From positions 410,705-474,704 of the forward strand of contig CAYFJV010000001.1 of assembly GCA_964343575.1 (NCBI GenBank): a stretch of 64,000 nucleotides of DNA. Reading direction: 5' to 3'. Below, piece after piece: positions 2,897 to 11,634 of this stretch. Position numbers and translations under genes: made by a program. A model generated the notes under the pieces. It made no database searches and had not been told where the DNA came from. It saw nothing but the letters and a program-made list of their open reading frames with translations. Numbering within the stretch: position 1 is the first letter of the stretch; each line of letters begins with the position of its first letter. The stretch comes from an uncultured Methanosarcinales archaeon (lineage in GTDB: Archaea > Nanobdellota > Nanobdellia > Woesearchaeales > GW2011-AR9).

Positions 2897-3093
2897 CTTA
2901 TTTCTTGTATGGGATGAATTCATCTCCACATTGGAGAAATTATACTAAAAATTTTGTCTGTTTCTTCTTTATTTTATTGTCTAACAAACTTTTTCTGCCA
3001 ATAACAACCACTTATGTTCTCTAGTTTGGCTGAAATTTGACGCTTTTGACAAAAAGGTTTATAAATCTTGAAAAAACCGACTTTTTGAAAACT

Positions 3094-4086
3094 ATGAATC
3101 AAAGCCAAAAAAAAGTATTCCTCGCACTTAATCGTTATCCAAACGCGACTGACAGGGAGCTTGCAGAAGTCCTTAGAATGAAGCGGGCAACAGTCACTGT
3201 CGCTCGGAACTACCTGAAGAAAGGAGGATTTTTTAGAAACGAGCTTTTTATCGACTATAAAAAATTAGGAGTTGGAGTGATTGGCTTAAAATTTGGAGAC
3301 TATGGAAAATTCACTTCCATCCCATTCCAAAAAAGAAAGGAATTTCTCTCTCAAGGAATCACTACGCCAGAAACAGTTTTCTCTTTCTCCTCTGAGCTTA
3401 AGGGCTTTAGCATGCTTTTCTCAGAAAATCTTTGTGCGATCAAGGAGAAAATTGATCTTTGGAATAATCTCATTCATGGCATTGATCGCCATACACACAT
3501 CAAAGATGTCTACCTTCCAACCGGAATGATTTACTCTTACAAGTTGATGCAAACACAAGAGCTTCTTGCCCATACACTTGAACTAGAAGTACTTAAAGAA
3601 ACTAAAAAGGTGAAAAGAAGAAGCAAATTTACTGCAAAAGATAAAATGGTCTTGCTCGCTTGGTTTGAACACCCTGACAAAACTAATGAAAAACTCTCAG
3701 AAATAATCCCGGTATCAAGAGCAACAATCGGAACTATCAAGAGAAGGCTTTTGGATTCTGGCTTGGTGAAAGTATTGCAAGTCCCTAGTTGGGAGAAACT
3801 TGGATTCAAGATGTTGGTATTAACCTACCTTCGACCACGAGTTGGGGAAGAGAAAGTCATTGATATACTTAAAGAGAAGAAGGAGATTATTTTTTTAGTA
3901 GGAAGCAAATATGAAGTGCTCTTTGCCTCTCTTTTCAGGGATTTTTCAGATTATCATGACAAACATGAACTATTCATGGAGAAGAATAAAAAGGATTTTG
4001 TGGAACAGACAGAAGAATTGATTTTTCCTTTGAATGATACAAAAACAGTTATTAACACATTACCTTTCCTGAAGAAAAAATTTTGA
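3094..4086 (+). CDS. Tandem winged-HTH (Lrp/AsnC-like) regulator, paralog 1
   Basis: Two internal repeats, each HTH (TDRELAEVLRMKRATV; TNEKLSEIIPVSRATI) followed by a YKKLG/WEKLG linker; ATG 3094 lies about 30 nt after TTTATAAA. Confidence 0.7.
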   Translation: MNQSQKKVFLALNRYPNATDRELAEVLRMKRATVTVARNYLKKGGFFRNELFIDYKKLGVGVIGLKFGDYGKFTSIPFQKRKEFLSQGITTPETVFSFSSELKGFSMLFSENLCAIKEKIDLWNNLIHGIDRHTHIKDVYLPTGMIYSYKLMQTQELLAHTLELEVLKETKKVKRRSKFTAKDKMVLLAWFEHPDKTNEKLSEIIPVSRATIGTIKRRLLDSGLVKVLQVPSWEKLGFKMLVLTYLRPRVGEEKVIDILKEKKEIIFLVGSKYEVLFASLFRDFSDYHDKHELFMEKNKKDFVEQTEELIFPLNDTKTVINTLPFLKKKF

Positions 4087-4104
4087 TGAAGAGTTAAATC
4101 TTGT

Positions 4105-4375
4105 AAAAAAAGAGGTGTAAAATATGGTAAACCATGTGGAAACAAATCCAAGTGTTCTGCAAAGAATGTATGTGAAAGGAAATAAAGTGATTACTGAGAC
4201 TATCTTCAGAGATAGCCGGAGTTTGACTTATTTCGAAAGAGATCTTCTTGAGATCGAAAAAAGGTATGGTGTGAAGCTGAAAAAAGGTAAGAAAAGGACA
4301 ACAAAAAGAAAAACAGCTAAACGCAAAACTACTAGAAGAAAATAAGTTCTTTCATTGTTTTTATTTTTCTTTTAC
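4105..4375 (+). repeat. Direct repeat copy 1 (small gene with RBS and U-rich 3' flank), near-identical to 5598-5875
   Basis: Direct nucleotide comparison; only scattered substitutions. Confidence 0.9.
4124..4345 (+). CDS. Small protein with Lys/Arg-rich tail, copy 1
   Basis: GAGGTG RBS, U-rich terminator-like flank; differences from copy 2 in the core are mostly synonymous. Confidence 0.8.
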   Translation: MVNHVETNPSVLQRMYVKGNKVITETIFRDSRSLTYFERDLLEIEKRYGVKLKKGKKRTTKRKTAKRKTTRRK

Positions 4376-4504: not shown

Positions 4505-5551
4505 ATGCAGCTGAGTAATACTCAAAAGAAGGTTCTCTGTGCAATTAATGCCTATCCCAGTTATAGTGATAAGCAGCTTGCTGACGTTCTTAAAATGAAG
4601 CGTGCGACAGTGACTGTTGCTCGGCATTACCTTCAAAAAAACGAGTTTTACGAGACTGTTCTCTTCCCAAACTACAAGAAGATTGGGATTAATCTTCTTG
4701 CTTTCAAATATGGAGATTATGGAAAGTTTAAATCTATTGCCTACCAGCAAAGAATGAAGCACCTTTCCCCAAAACTACGTATTGAAGAGACTGTCTTCTC
4801 CCTTTCTAGTGAGTTAAAAGGTTGTAGTATGTTTTTTTCTCCAAATCTTTTTGCTATCAAAGAAAAAATCGATGCGTGGAACACCACTTTTGAGGAGATG
4901 GATGAGCACGTTCGCATTCATGACGTCTACATCCCAAGTCAGATGGTAAGTTCTTTTAAGTTTATGGACTCGCAAGCTTATCTTACAGATCTTCTTGGAG
5001 TTGATGTACCTTTAACAAAAGCAAAGGAGAAGAAAAAACTCAAATTGAGTAACAAAGAGAAGGCGGTGCTTCTTGCTTGGTTGCGTCATCCAAATGCTAC
5101 CAACGAAGAACTTTCCAAAAAAATTTCAGTCTCTAGAGCTATCATTGGAGCTATCAAAAAAAGACTTCTTGATTCTGGGTTTGTGCAGTTGATCCAACTA
5201 CCCGATTGGAAAAAACTTGGTCCAAGCATTGGAGTTATGACTTATCTTCGCCTTAACGGCAAAGCAAAAAAACTCCTTGATGATCTTGTAAGCAGGAAAG
5301 AAGTTTTGTTTTTGATCAGTTCGGATTATGAGGCAATATTTTTCTCTCTCTTCGAAAATTATGTTAACTATCAACAAGAGCAAGGAAAGGTATTGGAAGA
5401 TTTCAAGAATAAAAGAATAATTATCAAAAAACCAGAAGAGTTGGTCTTTCCAATTCAAGAAACAAAGGTTGTTCTTAACTCTTTGCCACTTGTCGAAAAG
5501 CTTTTCCCAGAAAAAAGTGGTAAAAAGAAGACAAGCAAGGTGAAGAAATAA
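4505..5551 (+). CDS. Tandem winged-HTH (Lrp/AsnC-like) regulator, paralog 2
   Basis: Full-length paralog of 3094-4086 (MKRATVTVAR, GDYGKF, SSELKG, IKEKID.WN shared). Confidence 0.7.
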   Translation: MQLSNTQKKVLCAINAYPSYSDKQLADVLKMKRATVTVARHYLQKNEFYETVLFPNYKKIGINLLAFKYGDYGKFKSIAYQQRMKHLSPKLRIEETVFSLSSELKGCSMFFSPNLFAIKEKIDAWNTTFEEMDEHVRIHDVYIPSQMVSSFKFMDSQAYLTDLLGVDVPLTKAKEKKKLKLSNKEKAVLLAWLRHPNATNEELSKKISVSRAIIGAIKKRLLDSGFVQLIQLPDWKKLGPSIGVMTYLRLNGKAKKLLDDLVSRKEVLFLISSDYEAIFFSLFENYVNYQQEQGKVLEDFKNKRIIIKKPEELVFPIQETKVVLNSLPLVEKLFPEKSGKKKTSKVKK

Positions 5552-5597
5552 TAATTGAAAGCTGGGAAGGGGGGCATTTACTCCTTCAAAAAAGAGG

Positions 5598-5875
5598 AAA
5601 AAAAGAGGTGTAAAGTATGGGGAACCATGTGGAAACAAATCCAAGTGTTCTACAAAGGATGTACGTAAAAGGAAATAAGGTGATTACTGAGACTATCTTT
5701 AGAGATAGCCGGAGTTTGACTTATTTCGAAAGAGATCTCCTTGAGATCGAAAAAAGGTATGGTGTGAAGCTGAAAAAAAGTAAGAAGAAAACAACAAAAA
5801 GAAAAACAGCTAAACGCAAAACTACCAAGAGAAGAAGATAATTAGCTTCTTTTCATTGTTTTTATTTTTCTTTTA
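5598..5875 (+). repeat. Direct repeat copy 2 of 4105-4375
   Basis: Direct nucleotide comparison. Confidence 0.9.
5617..5841 (+). CDS. Small protein with Lys/Arg-rich tail, copy 2
   Basis: Near-identical to 4124-4345; GAGGTG RBS. Confidence 0.8.
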   Translation: MGNHVETNPSVLQRMYVKGNKVITETIFRDSRSLTYFERDLLEIEKRYGVKLKKSKKKTTKRKTAKRKTTKRRR

Positions 5876-8199: not shown

Positions 8200-8322
8200 T
8201 TACTCTATTATTCTAGTCTTATTTCGATGTTTTTTGAGATAACGATCGTAAACAAAAAGAAGCGCAATACAAAGTGTGTAGACCAATACGATGAGCTGCA
8301 CGTAGAGGTTGACGTTATCCAT
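8200..8322 (-). CDS. Putative 40-aa single-TM protein (MDNVNLYVQLIVLVYTLCIALLFVYDRYLKKHRNKTRIIE)
   Basis: Translated by hand; hydrophobic stretch plus basic tail; TATA-like element near 8345. Confidence 0.45.
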   Translation of the reverse strand: MDNVNLYVQLIVLVYTLCIALLFVYDRYLKKHRNKTRIIE

Positions 8323-8377
8323 CCCCGGAAGGAGGCTTTTTTCCTTTTTAAATGTATTCTTAACTCCACCCCCTTTT

Positions 8378-8560
8378 GTGGCGCGCTTGCCTAATTGCAG
8401 GAGGAATCAGAACAAAGAAGTGATCCTCTTGGGAGCTCTTTTCTCAACAAGAGAAAAGGGAATAGCGGACAAGGGCACAAAGAAATAGCTCTCTATTTCT
8501 TGTGCACAAAAAATGTTCCATTTTTTTGTGTTTTTCCGGCCCCAGCCCGGCAAGCGCCAC
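8378..8560. ncRNA. Unknown structured element, copy A
   Basis: Terminal pairing GTGGCGCGCTTGCC/GGCAAGCGCCAC, internal hairpins, homologous to the reverse complement of 10931-11058. Confidence 0.65.
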
Positions 8561-8610
8561 AAGAAGACAAATACAGAAAATATTTAAGCAATAGAAAAGG
8601 TTTTTGAGCC

Positions 8611-8940
8611 GTGAAATTTGAAAGTAAAGAAGTTCCTGGTAAAGGAGTTCGCTTAAGCTTGCAAGAAGAGGGCAAAGAAATTGGTCGGGCCTATTTGTAT
8701 GTCTTGCATAATGACCTACATAAAGAACCTTTTGGCTTACTTGAAGATGTTTTCGTCTCCGAAACCTTTCGCGGAAAGGGATATGGAGAGAAACTAGTGA
8801 GAAAAGCGGTTGAAGAAGCCAAGCGTCTTGATTGTTATAAGTTGGTCTTTACCAATCGCTATGGGAATAAAAAAATTCATGCCTGGTATAAAAGAATGGG
8901 TTTTAGAGATACTTCTAAAGGATTTAGAATGGATTTGTGA
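8611..8940 (+). CDS. GNAT acetyltransferase
   Basis: LEDVFVSETFRGKGYG motif A; WYKRMGF. Confidence 0.9.
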   Translation: MKFESKEVPGKGVRLSLQEEGKEIGRAYLYVLHNDLHKEPFGLLEDVFVSETFRGKGYGEKLVRKAVEEAKRLDCYKLVFTNRYGNKKIHAWYKRMGFRDTSKGFRMDL

Positions 8941-8951
8941 GAGGTAAAGAA

Positions 8952-9033
8952 GAAAGAGTGCCCCTACAAGATCTGCAACCAAACTTTTTAGAGAAAAGTT
9001 TGATCAAAAACACAAGGGAAAGAGTGCCCCTAC
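8952..9033 (-). mobile_element. Hairpin cassette (8968-9017) flanked by a 16-bp duplication of the tRNA-Arg 3' end
   Basis: GAAAGAGTGCCCCTAC at 8952-8967 and 9018-9033; core CAAACTTTT..AAAAGTTTG. Confidence 0.6.
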
Positions 9034-9136
9034 CCGGATTTGAACCGGGGTTTCAAGCTCTTTGCATAGCAAAGCTCACAAAGCTTGCTTTATCTTACCG
9101 CAAGCTTGCGTCATATCCAAGCTAAACCATAGGGGC
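9025..9136 (-). tRNA. tRNA-Arg(GCG) with 38-nt 37/38 intron (9060-9097)
   Basis: Acceptor GCCCCTA/TAGGGGC, stem CAAGC/GCTTG, BHB central helix TTGC/GCAA, T loop TTCAAAT. Confidence 0.93.
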
Positions 9137-9204
9137 AAAGCTGCTCTTGTGGATTTCTGCTGCTTTATTAAGTTAACCACTAGAAATTGGGAAGAGGACC
9201 AATT

Positions 9205-10026
9205 TCACTTCTTTCTTCTGTGCTCTTTTTTAATTTCTGCGCCACCAGCAGGCAAAAAACTAATGATATCGTCTAGGTCTCCCCCTTTAAGCTGAGAACG
9301 AATCTTCTTTGCTAGCGCAGATTTTTTTTCTCTCCCGGGGATCACAGTGAGGTAGTTCTCTGTCTTAGCTTGCACTGCGCTTGGTGGTCCGCCAATGATC
9401 TGTTGACTTTGTGTCCCTTCCTTCTCTTCGCTTACTAAACCGATTGCATAAGAAACGCTTGGGTGCAGATAGGTGTTTTTTCCATAAACCATAAAGCTTC
9501 CTTTTGCGAGGTGCTCTCCGGACTGCGCTTCTTTTGTCACCTGCTCAGGTTTGACATAGAAAACATCTGCCGTGGCATGACCCAATTTCCAAGCTCGAGA
9601 ATATGCAGCGGTTGCCTGCGCAGCTTCTTCTTTACTTAGATCTCCTGCGCGCTGACCTTCTTTGATCACAAAGAAAGGACTTCCTGCCATATCGGTATGA
9701 AAGACAAGATCCTCTTTCTCAGTATGCTTTTTCACCACAATTTCGTTAGAGGTAGCATCCTTTCCTCCAACGCACAAAAATCCTTCACTTGTGAAGAACC
9801 AATGAAACTTTTCATACCACTCCTTTTTGCGGTTCTTCTTCTCTTGACGTTTTGCTTCTTGCTCTTGGAACTTTTCTTCTTGGCTAAGGAGCAGAGCTAG
9901 TTTTGTTTTACTCTCTTCAAGCGCCTTTTTTGCTCCTTCTAGCTTTTTCTTATTCTTCTTAGCAAGGTCAAAATAGCGCCCGGCATTTTCATCTACAGAC
10001 TTTTCAAGATAGATTTCAACTTTCAT
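9205..10026 (-). CDS. NFACT-R (DUF814) domain protein, short RqcH/NEMF-like
   Basis: WYEKFHWF, GGKDATSNE, FHTDMAGSP, SGEHLAKGSFMVYG. Confidence 0.88.
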   Translation of the reverse strand: MKVEIYLEKSVDENAGRYFDLAKKNKKKLEGAKKALEESKTKLALLLSQEEKFQEQEAKRQEKKNRKKEWYEKFHWFFTSEGFLCVGGKDATSNEIVVKKHTEKEDLVFHTDMAGSPFFVIKEGQRAGDLSKEEAAQATAAYSRAWKLGHATADVFYVKPEQVTKEAQSGEHLAKGSFMVYGKNTYLHPSVSYAIGLVSEEKEGTQSQQIIGGPPSAVQAKTENYLTVIPGREKKSALAKKIRSQLKGGDLDDIISFLPAGGAEIKKEHRRKK

Positions 10027-10076
10027 AACAGATAACAGTTTACTGAGAAGAGTCAAAGAAATAAAAATGCTTTGTT

Positions 10077-10340
10077 TTACTTTTGAGGGAAGGTGTGTTC
10101 TGTCCTGTAATCACTTATTAAATCTAATGGTGTCTGCTCACAGCGAGCATATAATTCAGTAATTCCTCCTCCAGAAGATGGACTTTCTATGTGGAGGAGA
10201 ACATCTCCATGTCCAGTGTGATAGATCCCAAACACGAGATGCTCGAGTACATCTCCCAGAACAGTAAAGCGGGCACGCTGCTGAGCAGTTAGAGTTGAAG
10301 GAACAGTTCTATCAAAAGTAGTGAGGTCTTCTAGCGGCAT
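10077..10340 (-). CDS. Hypothetical Lys-poor protein
   Basis: ORF from ATG 10340 downstream of a TATA-like element. Confidence 0.5.
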   Translation of the reverse strand: MPLEDLTTFDRTVPSTLTAQQRARFTVLGDVLEHLVFGIYHTGHGDVLLHIESPSSGGGITELYARCEQTPLDLISDYRTEHTFPQK

Positions 10341-10414
10341 ACGGGAGGGAAGTAAGAAAATTATAAAAAAGTTCGTAAGAAAAGTTAGGGGACGTGGGGT
10401 GTACGGAAGGAGAG

Positions 10415-10879
10415 CTAACAAGCTCGAATTTCATCACCCTCAAGGACCAAGGCTTGCTCAACACAGATCTCTTCTTCTTCAAGCACCTTTACTTTTGGGA
10501 TGATTTTTACTTGTCTCATCTCACCACTAAACTCTGGATTATAACCTAAATGGGTGAGATAATTTCCTGCTTTGTGCATTTGCGCATCTTCTAAATCAAA
10601 ACTTTCAGCACGCTCAGTACCAATGATATTCACTACCAAACCACTGACATCAAGATTTATTCCGTTTTCTACCACAAAATACAAGTCTTTTTTCTCATGA
10701 TCAAAACAAAGTTCAGGAAGACCTTCCACTTCAGAAAACTCTAGACCAATGTCAATGGTACAGTGTGATTCGAGGTCCACTTGTGCTCTTCCAAAGTTCA
10801 TGATCACCAAACCAACTGCTACTGCAAAAGAAATGAGTAAGAGCGTTGCAACTAGCGGAGCCATTCCTTTTTTTTTCAT
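10415..10879 (-). CDS. Archaeal type IV pilin-like protein
   Basis: Class III signal peptide MKKKG|MAPLVATLLLISFAVAVG. Confidence 0.85.
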   Translation of the reverse strand: MKKKGMAPLVATLLLISFAVAVGLVIMNFGRAQVDLESHCTIDIGLEFSEVEGLPELCFDHEKKDLYFVVENGINLDVSGLVVNIIGTERAESFDLEDAQMHKAGNYLTHLGYNPEFSGEMRQVKIIPKVKVLEEEEICVEQALVLEGDEIRAC

Positions 10880-10930
10880 AGTGCTCTTAAAGAGGTTTTT
10901 TTGTTATTTAAAGCTTTGTTACTCATTTAA

Positions 10931-11058
10931 GTGGCGCTTGCCAAGGCGGGGCCAGAAGAACTCCTGTCCGCCATTAGCTTTTCCTTAGCAGGAAAAGGGT
11001 TCCCAGGAGATTCGCTTCCTTCTTCTTAATTTTCCCAGCAATCAGGCAAGCGCGCCAC
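10931..11058. ncRNA. Unknown structured element, copy B
   Basis: Terminal pairing GTGGCGCTTGCC/GGCAAGCGCGCCAC; inverted homolog of 8378-8560. Confidence 0.65.
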
Positions 11059-11106
11059 TCATTCTTCAGGAGAAGGCATATAAAGCGCCCCTTTCTTCGT
11101 GCCATT

Positions 11107-11634
11107 ATGCCAGGAGAAATAAAGATGGGAGAGAATATCTTTTTGATCTCTCACTACCTTGAAGATTTTGAAACCTTCTTGAATGATGCTAAATTAATGG
11201 CAGTGCAAACAATACCCTTTGTCTCTGTTGGTGCGGTTCTGTTCAGAGAGCTTTCTGGAGAAAGGAAATTTCTTTTGATTAAACACAAAGAAAAATTTGG
11301 CGGGCATTGGGACTTTCCAAAAGGACATAGTGAAGTTGATGAGGAGCGTAAAGAGACTGCAAAACGTGAGGTTCTTGAGGAAACTGGCTTGCAAATTAAT
11401 GGTTTTGTTCTAGGCTTTTGTGAAGAAAGTGTGTATTACCCTCGTAATTTTTTATATGTACGCAAGAGTGTTTTTTTCTTTTTAGCAAAAGCAGGTGCTA
11501 GAGAAGAGGTAAAAATTGCTGAGAATGAGTTAGAAGACTTTGCTTGGCTTTCCTTTAGGGAGGCAAAAAAGAGGCTGACCTATCAGCGCAGCAAAGAGAT
11601 TCTTGAATCTGCAGAAGCTTTTATTAAGCGCTGA
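11107..11634 (+). CDS. NUDIX hydrolase (Ap4A hydrolase-like)
   Basis: HWDFPKGHSE...TAKREVLEETG Nudix box. Confidence 0.92.
   Translation: MPGEIKMGENIFLISHYLEDFETFLNDAKLMAVQTIPFVSVGAVLFRELSGERKFLLIKHKEKFGGHWDFPKGHSEVDEERKETAKREVLEETGLQINGFVLGFCEESVYYPRNFLYVRKSVFFFLAKAGAREEVKIAENELEDFAWLSFREAKKRLTYQRSKEILESAEAFIKR

What the first reader, a model, noticed from the sequence alone, without database searches (positions are those of the whole stretch)
8378..11058. Two diverged, covarying copies of an unannotated structured element (candidate novel ncRNA)
Seen: 8378-8560 (183 nt) and the reverse complement of 10931-11058 (128 nt) align end to end: GTGGCGCGCTTGCCT(A/G)ATTGC...GAAG(T/C)GA..CTC(T/C)TGGGA..CTTTTC..GAAAAG..AAT(A/G)GCGGACA...(C/T)GGCCCC..GCC..GGCAAGCGCCAC. 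The ends pair with a conserved 2-nt bulge, and the next flanking pair covaries (T-A versus A-T). An internal hairpin shows compensatory change (CTTTTCTC/GAGAAAAG versus CTTTTCCT/AGGAAAAG). Copy A has a ~55-nt insertion that folds into two hairpins exactly where copy B has a short loop. Both copies are GC-rich islands between divergent genes, with TATA-like boxes about 25 nt from both ends, so strand cannot be assigned; no target-site duplication is visible. Inference: selection acts on structure, as for a functional RNA. I do not recognise it as SRP, RNase P, 5S, tRNA or a C/D guide. A MITE remains possible.
Basis: partly seen in the sequence, partly recalled or inferred. Interest (0 to 1): 0.82.

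Follow-up and report, generated by a model that had tools for sequence, protein, structure and literature searches.

The report
Mobile folded repeat family in Woesearchaeota
The two look-alike stretches belong to a family of short, hairpin-folding repeats scattered between the genes of some small-genome archaea; the family can travel inside transposon ends, yet keeps its fold more strictly than its sequence, for a reason still unknown.

Summary
The two copies are real (76% identical) but are 2 of at least 23 in this Woesearchaeota-type genome, 22 on one strand. Covariance models find the family in 10 of 114 genomes of the family (1 to at least 47 copies) and in 6 genomes of five other families. 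The 130-150-nt rod covaries strongly: 31 of 32 pairs, score 0.57 against 0.19 shuffled. There is no Rfam match; SRP, 5S and RNase P lie elsewhere. It is mobile: 12 of 121 copies sit inside terminal inverted repeats with 8-9-bp target duplications, two end types resembling IS5-family elements, one a recent nine-copy burst; syntenic empty sites exist. Both window copies lack such ends, and their TATA boxes point away, at neighbouring genes, so they are unlikely to be RNA genes. Best reading: a new MITE/bcr1-like structured repeat whose fold outlasts its transposon ends. What maintains the fold is open: RNA (G-U-rich helix), single-stranded DNA (strand bias) or template switching. An earlier scan note (e1-761330) called another copy in this genome a MITE.

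The parts
8378..8560 (+). Copy A of the structured repeat (core rod with an inserted module); the only one of 23 copies in the genome on the + strand
8475..8529 (.). Two abutting hairpins inserted in the 3' strand of the large internal loop of A; a separate small module with relatives at other places of the genome, two of them inside other copies at a different position
8566..8577 (.). Possible decayed remnant of an IS5-type right end beside A (seen by eye, about 9 of 16 bases; not significant)
   Evidence: sequence compared with IS ends; one search finds no end pair
10931..11058 (-). Copy B of the structured repeat (128-nt core rod, no insert)
8345..8360 (-). BRE-TATA promoter of the small ORF, pointing away from A (score 8.5; inward best -3.7)
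8573..8588 (+). BRE-TATA promoter of the GNAT gene, pointing away from A (score 9.2; inward best 3.7)
10905..10920 (-). BRE-TATA promoter of the pilin-like gene, pointing away from B (score 11.8; inward best 1.0)
11069..11084 (+). BRE-TATA promoter of the NUDIX gene, pointing away from B (score 11.2; inward best -1.7)
8200..8322 (-). Neighbour: 40-aa membrane-protein ORF, below the default ORF cut-off
8611..8940 (+). Neighbour: GNAT acetyltransferase (PF00583); absent with A from syntenic locus L312
10415..10879 (-). Neighbour: archaeal pilin-like protein; nearest Atlas clusters are Nanobdellota/Woesearchaeota
11107..11634 (+). Neighbour: NUDIX hydrolase (PF00293)

Best explanation
A and B are old, probably untranscribed members of a family of non-autonomous mobile repeats of Woesearchaeales. 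The unit is a 130-150-nt rod: variable outer stem, bulged GC-rich stem, a short helix, a large asymmetric loop with an A-rich 5' strand, a 6-bp helix, a G-A/G-A loop, a 3' bulge and a hairpin that opens with TTT/AAA. Shown: it covaries, it is multi-copy and patchy, some copies lie between terminal inverted repeats with 8-9-bp target duplications, two of those end types also bound IS5-family elements in related genomes, and sites are filled in some genomes and empty in others. Inferred: DDE transposases acting in trans move it while it has such ends; only insertions behind stop codons or outside promoters survive; ends and duplications then decay while the core is refreshed by gene conversion between copies and held by selection on its fold, most likely as RNA in the copies that are read through within or behind operons (mRNA end protection or processing), as proposed for Bacillus bcr repeats. 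A and B, between outward promoters, would be passive copies.
For: Covariation: 92 distinct copies, 89.9% of cells paired, 31 of 32 pairs with two-sided changes, score 0.567 vs 0.185 shuffled and 0.05-0.09 slid; in 35 disjoint nearest-neighbour pairs 105 two-sided changes keep the pair, 23 do not. Mobility: nine 95-99%-identical copies of a 276-bp element in G065 with 10-bp terminal repeats and target duplications; 13 of 121 copies pass an end-plus-duplication test vs 2 of 244 mismatched controls; 4 of 31 transposase loci are whole elements with GGCTCTGT-type ends and 9-bp duplications, best family NF033579 IS5. G000 shows a gradient from intact to half-decayed to absent ends. Empty sites: L312, L360, G063. 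Copies at shared sites usually resemble their genome-mates more than each other. RNA side: G-U 125 vs A-C 70; one G-U pair in 25 of 25 copies of the widespread subtype; 22 of 96 copies start within 15 nt of a same-strand stop codon and 35 of 93 lie between two same-strand genes.
Against: 108 of 121 copies, A and B among them, show no ends or duplication, and outer-end remnants are at background level in G062 (0 of 40 flanks) and G064 (2 of 28), so loss of ends is inferred, not seen. No DDE transposase was found in G000, G062 or G065 with PF01609. The IS elements do not carry the core, and no element was found for two end types. 26 of 93 copies lie antisense between tandem genes and 22 between divergent genes, which an RNA role does not explain. 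The IS5 scores (125-138 bits) are under the cut-off of 140. No expression data.
Confidence: 0.55

Rival explanations
1. A single-stranded-DNA signal tied to replication direction (priming, protein loading, or an end for single-strand transposition), used by the host or by an unknown mobiliser; the transposon ends are later captures.
For: 22 of 23 copies in G000 lie on the A+C-rich strand (14 of 14 on C2, p=1e-4; 8 of 9 on C1, p=0.04) although genes are split evenly. Orientation ignores gene direction. No inward promoters. 11 sites are shared between genomes in the same orientation (16 links vs 7 of other kinds). A 17-nt G-rich strand is nearly invariant across families.
Against: Outside G000 neighbouring copies share a strand in only 22 of 37 cases (p=0.16); 52 of 78 lie on the A+C-rich strand, which gene content confounds. 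Most relatives lack it (104 of 114 in the family), so it is not essential. G-U-rich helices suit RNA better (established knowledge). No Y1 transposase in G000, G061, G062 or G064. IS families can also show orientation bias (PMC3971601, passages).
Confidence: 0.17
2. A neutral MITE family: template switching during replication copies one arm onto the other and so makes two-sided changes without selection; gene conversion does the rest.
For: Template switching can create multibase compensatory changes (PMC8794818, abstract). Whole helices are swapped in blocks. The genome is rich in perfect hairpins and hairpin modules. MITE-dense Woesearchaea are on record (PMC11602168, passage).
Against: Template switching should erase bulges and loops, yet unpaired G74, A76 and A197 are 95-96% conserved among copies with a base there and the loops keep their places in 88 copies. 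Cores stay 44-51% GC in flanks of 28-35%. G-U pairs persist, one in 25 of 25.
Confidence: 0.13
3. A multi-copy non-coding RNA gene family or an RNA-borne (SINE-like) element with its own transcription.
For: RNA-like covariation, G-U pairs and tandem G-A loop; 6S-like rod with a large asymmetric loop (shape only); retention at 11 shared sites.
Against: An inward sense promoter above the 97.5% random level at only 1 of 18 G000 copies and at neither A nor B. No reverse transcriptase in 4 of 5 carrier genomes, no TnpB/Cas12f or IS110 in 5 of 5. Loop sequences do not match their own flanks. Patchy range and bursts.
Confidence: 0.13

Closest known systems
Bacillus cereus group repeats bcr1-bcr3 (PMC3184786, PMC6199540, PMC3446304; passages only)
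   Same: About 155 bp, intergenic, about a dozen full copies per genome, positions not conserved between strains, compensatory changes keep a fold, often part of UTRs or operon gaps.
   Different: bcr1 is cruciform with a 5-bp TTTAT duplication at every copy; this is an archaeal rod with internal loops, no fixed target word, 8-9-bp duplications only where transposon ends are present, several different end types, and no sequence match (no Rfam or collection hit).
Prokaryotic MITEs derived from IS5-family elements (PMC11602168, PMC3184786; passages)
   Same: Terminal inverted repeats matching whole IS elements, 8-9-bp target duplication, non-coding interior, recent bursts, filled and empty sites; met by 12 of 121 copies.
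   Different: In a MITE the ends are the conserved part. Here the interior is conserved by structure and the ends are absent from about nine in ten copies, A and B included; the same core occurs inside five end types and is not part of the IS elements found.
REP/REPIN elements with RAYT transposase (recalled)
   Same: Dispersed intergenic folded repeats, genome-specific subtypes.
   Different: No conserved tetranucleotide-plus-hairpin ends seen; no Y1 transposase in 4 of the 5 high-copy genomes.
Integron attC sites (recalled)
   Same: Strand-specific imperfect hairpin, structure kept over sequence, bulged bases, orientation bias, accessory genes (GNAT, NUDIX) beside some copies.
   Different: No conserved AAC/GTT core in the column profile, no arrays, and the accessory genes face A and B with their 5' ends and own promoters.
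6S RNA, SRP RNA, 5S rRNA, RNase P RNA, H/ACA and C/D guides
   Same: Paired ends and a rod or bubble shape only.
   Different: No Rfam hit; the genome's own SRP, 5S and RNase P RNAs lie elsewhere; no conserved C/D boxes or ACA tail in the profile.

Membership tests
MITE (IS5-derived) | Terminal inverted repeats like those of an autonomous IS | tested here: inconclusive
   Not met at A and B; met in other copies, two end types resembling whole IS5-family elements.
MITE (IS5-derived) | Target-site duplication | tested here: inconclusive
   None at A or B; 13 of 121 copies pass vs 2 of 244 controls.
MITE (IS5-derived) | Multi-copy, non-coding, filled and empty orthologous sites | tested here: met
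   23 copies in G000; empty in L312, L360, G063.
MITE (IS5-derived) | Moved in trans by the cognate transposase | not testable with these tools
   Inferred from shared ends; no DDE_Tnp_1 gene found in G000.
bcr1-type structured repeat | Fold kept by compensatory changes among dispersed copies | tested here: met
bcr1-type structured repeat | Fixed 5-bp target duplication and cruciform fold | tested here: not met
   Rod fold; flanks show no fixed word.
bcr1-type structured repeat | Transcribed as part of mRNAs | not testable with these tools
   Position suggests it for some copies; no RNA run was listed.
Known structured RNA families (Rfam 15) | Score at or above a family's gathering cut-off | tested here: not met
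Stand-alone archaeal ncRNA gene | BRE-TATA promoter about 25-30 nt upstream, pointing into the gene | tested here: not met
   inward scores -3.7 (A) and -1.7 (B); 1 of 18 copies above the 97.5% random level
REP/REPIN-RAYT | Co-occurring Y1 (HUH) transposase | tested here: not met
   PF01797 not found in G000, G061, G062, G064; only a copy with a stop in G065; found in 43 of 114 family genomes, mostly non-carriers.
Integron attC | Invariant AAC/GTT core, one site behind each cassette gene | tested here: not met
Integron attC | Integron integrase in the genome | tested here: inconclusive
   Tyrosine recombinases are present in 5 of 5 genomes but were not typed.
Guide RNA of TnpB/Cas12f or IS110 | Cognate gene nearby and a loop or end matching the target | tested here: not met
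   0 of 5 genomes for PF07282 and PF02371; loop-to-flank match equals control.

The most novel reading that the evidence does not exclude
The core is an independent functional nucleic-acid module, either an RNA with a specific partner or a replication-polar single-stranded-DNA signal, that spreads and is overwritten between loci by its own route, is kept at the same sites across genera, and has been captured several times by unrelated transposon ends. That would be a SINE-like or domesticated structured element of a kind not described in archaea.
Probability: 0.25. Interest if true: 0.8.

Novelty: new variant of a known kind. Interest (0 to 1): 0.5.

Why it matters
It adds a well-covarying, Rfam-absent repeat family to an archaeal lineage with almost no described non-coding elements, and shows one folded core riding in several different transposon ends while most copies have none. 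It is also a warning: strong covariation between two copies can come from a mobile repeat, not an RNA gene. If the fold proves to have a partner or a replication role, it would explain part of the intergenic DNA of these reduced genomes and give a handle on their unusual one-sided strand skew.

Tried and rejected
Rfam at gathering and loose thresholds: nothing over A, B or seven other loci. BLAST of B against 40 relatives missed the family (one weak 24-nt hit, not followed up); only covariance models found it. No RNA holder was listed, which is no evidence either way; no reads were laid. Lower variation of the core than of the ends in the G065 burst (2 of 127 vs 16 of 149 sites, p=0.002) was set aside: the variable sites crowd at both ends, as assembly collapse of repeats would give. 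Enrichment of an inner-IS-end word in outer stems (25 of 152 flanks vs 34 of 1520) was chosen after seeing the data and counts as a hint only. A bulge-helix-bulge splicing reading was rejected by eye: the motif is 2-5-2, is missing in A and B, and the window's tRNA-Arg intron uses 3-4-3. Guide-RNA test negative. A recalled likeness of the G-rich strand to Cas12f/TnpB RNAs was tested only by looking for the genes (0 of 5). The first viral pattern was too loose and its hits were not examined; three tighter ones gave 0; phage and plasmid BLAST gave 0. A GTDB-wide pattern gave 23 hits, 14 in two archaeal genomes confirmed by the model and 9 bacterial hits that failed it. No close strain was found among 80 metagenome loci (best 73% protein identity). 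Literature searches for a description of this family found none; subscription papers and supplements were not seen, and the MITE census tables of PMC11602168 may list the copies that have ends.
Full report
Observation. The two stretches are as described. Window 8378-8560 (+, copy A) and 10931-11058 (-, copy B) align end to end with 96 of 127 bases identical; A carries a 55-nt two-hairpin insert. A folds well beyond shuffles (z -5.9), B modestly (z -2.5). Rfam gives nothing over either copy, ARAGORN nothing. The genome (G000, 1.21 Mb) has one SRP RNA, one 5S rRNA and one RNase P RNA elsewhere. The host is Nanobdellota/Woesearchaeota by the nearest clusters of the neighbouring pilin-like protein.

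A family, not a pair. Profile searches found 17 copies in G000, then 18, then 23 with a divergent subtype. Model R2 matched 6 of 114 genomes of the family and model R3 9 of 114, together 10 genomes in six genera; only 26-28 candidates were scored per genome, so counts are minima: G061 20, G062 20, G064 14, G065 47, G001 1. R2 matched 0 of 150 other genomes in an order-wide sample. A 17-nt G-rich motif of the divergent subtype hit 27 of 400 order genomes; of 36 loci tested, those of six genomes in five other families scored with R3 at E 0.0014 or better. One of the six, G425, with 18 motif hits, is unpublished; that count and one link rest on it. The exact motif hit 3 of 401 genomes in a phylum-wide sample, all in the same order. 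The range is therefore patchy, and it was not found outside the order in the genomes searched.

Structure. On the strand A(+)/B(-) the unit is a rod: variable outer stem, often a 2-nt 3' bulge, a 5-bp GC helix, a 2-nt 5' bulge, a second helix, a small loop, a 5-bp helix, a large asymmetric loop with an A-rich 5' strand, a 6-bp helix, a G-A/G-A loop, 2 bp, a 3' bulge and a hairpin opening with TTT/AAA. In 92 distinct copies 89.9% of cells pair, 31 of 32 pairs show two-sided changes, and the covariation score is 0.567 against 0.185 shuffled and 0.05-0.09 slid. That alignment was fitted to the model, but the plain MAFFT alignment of 14 copies also gave 20 of 26 pairs with two-sided changes. In 35 disjoint pairs of nearest copies 105 two-sided changes keep the pair and 23 do not; 104 one-sided changes break a pair and 49 keep it. 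In 88 copies the unpaired G74, A76 and A197 are 95-96% conserved among copies with a base there. The fold prefers one strand: G-U 125 vs A-C 70; lower energy in 65 of 114 copies with RNA and 69 of 114 with DNA parameters, so energy does not tell RNA from DNA. In the widespread subtype (25 copies) a helix is G-U rich, one pair G-U in 25 of 25. A and B belong to a derived subtype that lacks 11 nt of that G-rich strand.

It moves. G065 holds nine copies, 95-99% identical, of a 276-bp element that contains the core between 10-bp terminal repeats, with 8-9-bp target duplications at seven by eye. A scripted test passes 13 of 121 copies against 2 of 244 mismatched controls; 12 of these lie inside ends of five types (two starting GGCTCTGT, one GGCTCCAT, one GATGCTGGGT, one GTAGGTATTA) and one has the duplication directly at its own stem. 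Of 31 DDE transposase loci from the family, four are whole elements of 0.9-1.0 kb with GGCTCTGT-type ends and 9-bp duplications; three proteins scanned score best with NF033579, IS5 family, at 125-138 bits, under the cut-off of 140. The label IS903 group is recalled. None of the 29 loci scanned carries the core. In G000 the ends range from intact through half-decayed to absent. Empty sites exist: L312 has the window's gene order without A, B, GNAT or NUDIX; L360 has the NUDIX-pilin pair about 60-70 nt apart against 227 nt here; neither model matches any of the 80 metagenome loci. A gap between two co-oriented translation genes (eIF5A and L40e, names recalled) is filled in G062, G064 and G065 and 46 nt long in G063.

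It also stays. Among 124 copies, 16 flanking-gene links between genomes are at the same gene end in the same orientation (11 sites, several across genera) against 7 links of the other three kinds. In 7 such comparisons the partner copy ranked first among its genome's copies only twice, and it was never closer than both copies' best genome-mates. This points to gene conversion at old sites or to repeated use of the same sites.

Against an RNA gene at A and B. A promoter matrix learnt from 384 upstream regions of G000 puts TATA at -30/-31 with an AA element before it. At A the outward scores are 8.5 and 9.2, the inward -3.7 and 3.7; at B 11.2 and 11.8 against -1.7 and 1.0; the 97.5% level of random windows is 6.4; 1 of 18 copies has an inward sense site above it. 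Orientation to genes is free: tandem same strand 35, tandem opposite 26, divergent 22, convergent 10 of 93 (simple ORF calls, some wrong). Yet 22 of 96 copies start within 15 nt of a same-strand stop codon and must be read through.

Strand bias. In G000 22 of 23 copies lie on the - strand, which is A+C rich at third codon positions along most of both large contigs; A is the exception. Outside G000 the signal is weak: 22 of 37 neighbouring copies share a strand (p=0.16). Some IS families show orientation bias (PMC3971601, passages), so this does not by itself demand a replication role.

No partner found. G000 has no match to DDE_Tnp_1, Y1 transposase, reverse transcriptase, TnpB/Cas12f or IS110; repeats are often lost from such assemblies, and G065 has a fresh burst without a DDE match. 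Neighbours are mixed housekeeping and accessory genes.

How it most likely works. Shown: fold, copy number, ends with duplications in a minority, related IS ends, filled and empty sites, outward promoters at A and B. Inferred: transposition in trans while ends are present, survival only in harmless gaps, decay of the ends, upkeep of the core by conversion and by selection on the fold, most likely in read-through RNA (0.55). Rivals: a single-stranded-DNA signal (0.17), neutral upkeep by template switching (0.13; PMC8794818, abstract and opening seen), an RNA gene or RNA-borne element (0.13).

Comparison. It works like the Bacillus bcr1-3 repeats (PMC3184786, PMC6199540, PMC3446304; passages seen) and, where ends are present, like IS5-derived MITEs (PMC11602168 reports 105 candidate MITEs per Mb in one Woesearchaea genome; passages seen, supplements not). 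A and B fail the MITE tests for ends and duplication, and the family fails the bcr1 target word and cruciform, so it is filed as a new variant, not a member. Five literature searches found no description. An earlier scan note (e1-761330) read the copy behind the MCM gene as one of three MITE copies; I confirm mobility but find 23 copies and a conserved core that most often has no ends.

Verdict. Real, new as a family, mobile, structurally constrained, function open. Interest 0.5; 0.8 if the core proves to be an independent functional module (probability 0.25).

Noticed in passing
window 8953-8968 and 9018-9033: The 3' end of tRNA-Arg(GCG) is repeated 65 nt downstream (15-16 nt direct repeat), like the scar of an integration at the tRNA; the GNAT gene and copy A follow it.
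   Followed up: partly
window 9025-9136 (-): tRNA-Arg(GCG) has a 38-nt intron made of two hairpins with a 3-4-3 bulge-helix-bulge; the orthologue in L312 has no intron. Six of the seven tRNAs in the window carry introns.
   Followed up: partly
One-directional replication is a possible reading.
   Followed up: partly
window 8475-8529; G000 C1:22642, C1:579006, C1:592201, C2:57241: A 50-60-nt module of two abutting A/T-tract hairpins inserts into the core at different positions and into another repeat family.
   Followed up: partly
G000 C1:22693-22813, C2:144075-144195, C1:503227-503346; C1:64444-64639 and 70458-70658; C1:299642-299724 and 592186-592265: At least three further hairpin-rich repeat families, unrelated to the core by these searches.
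   Followed up: no
G065 (L074, L076, L077): A second MITE family with GGCTCTGTAGAAA ends (19 end sites) carries other hairpin cargo and nests beside the core-bearing MITE, in one case moving with it as a composite under one target duplication.
   Followed up: partly
L446 (G066 C19): A copy that lacks the whole apical arm but keeps the base and the G-rich strand, at a site shared with G061; useful for defining the minimal unit.
   Followed up: no
window 3037-4345 and 4505-5841: A tandem duplication of a two-gene unit: a 349-aa double helix-turn-helix-like protein followed by a 73-aa basic protein.
   Followed up: no
L180 (G041 C45:1-76): The left end of the G065 MITE lies about 100 nt from a different DDE element at a contig end, with another interior; its own autonomous partner was not found.
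   Followed up: partly
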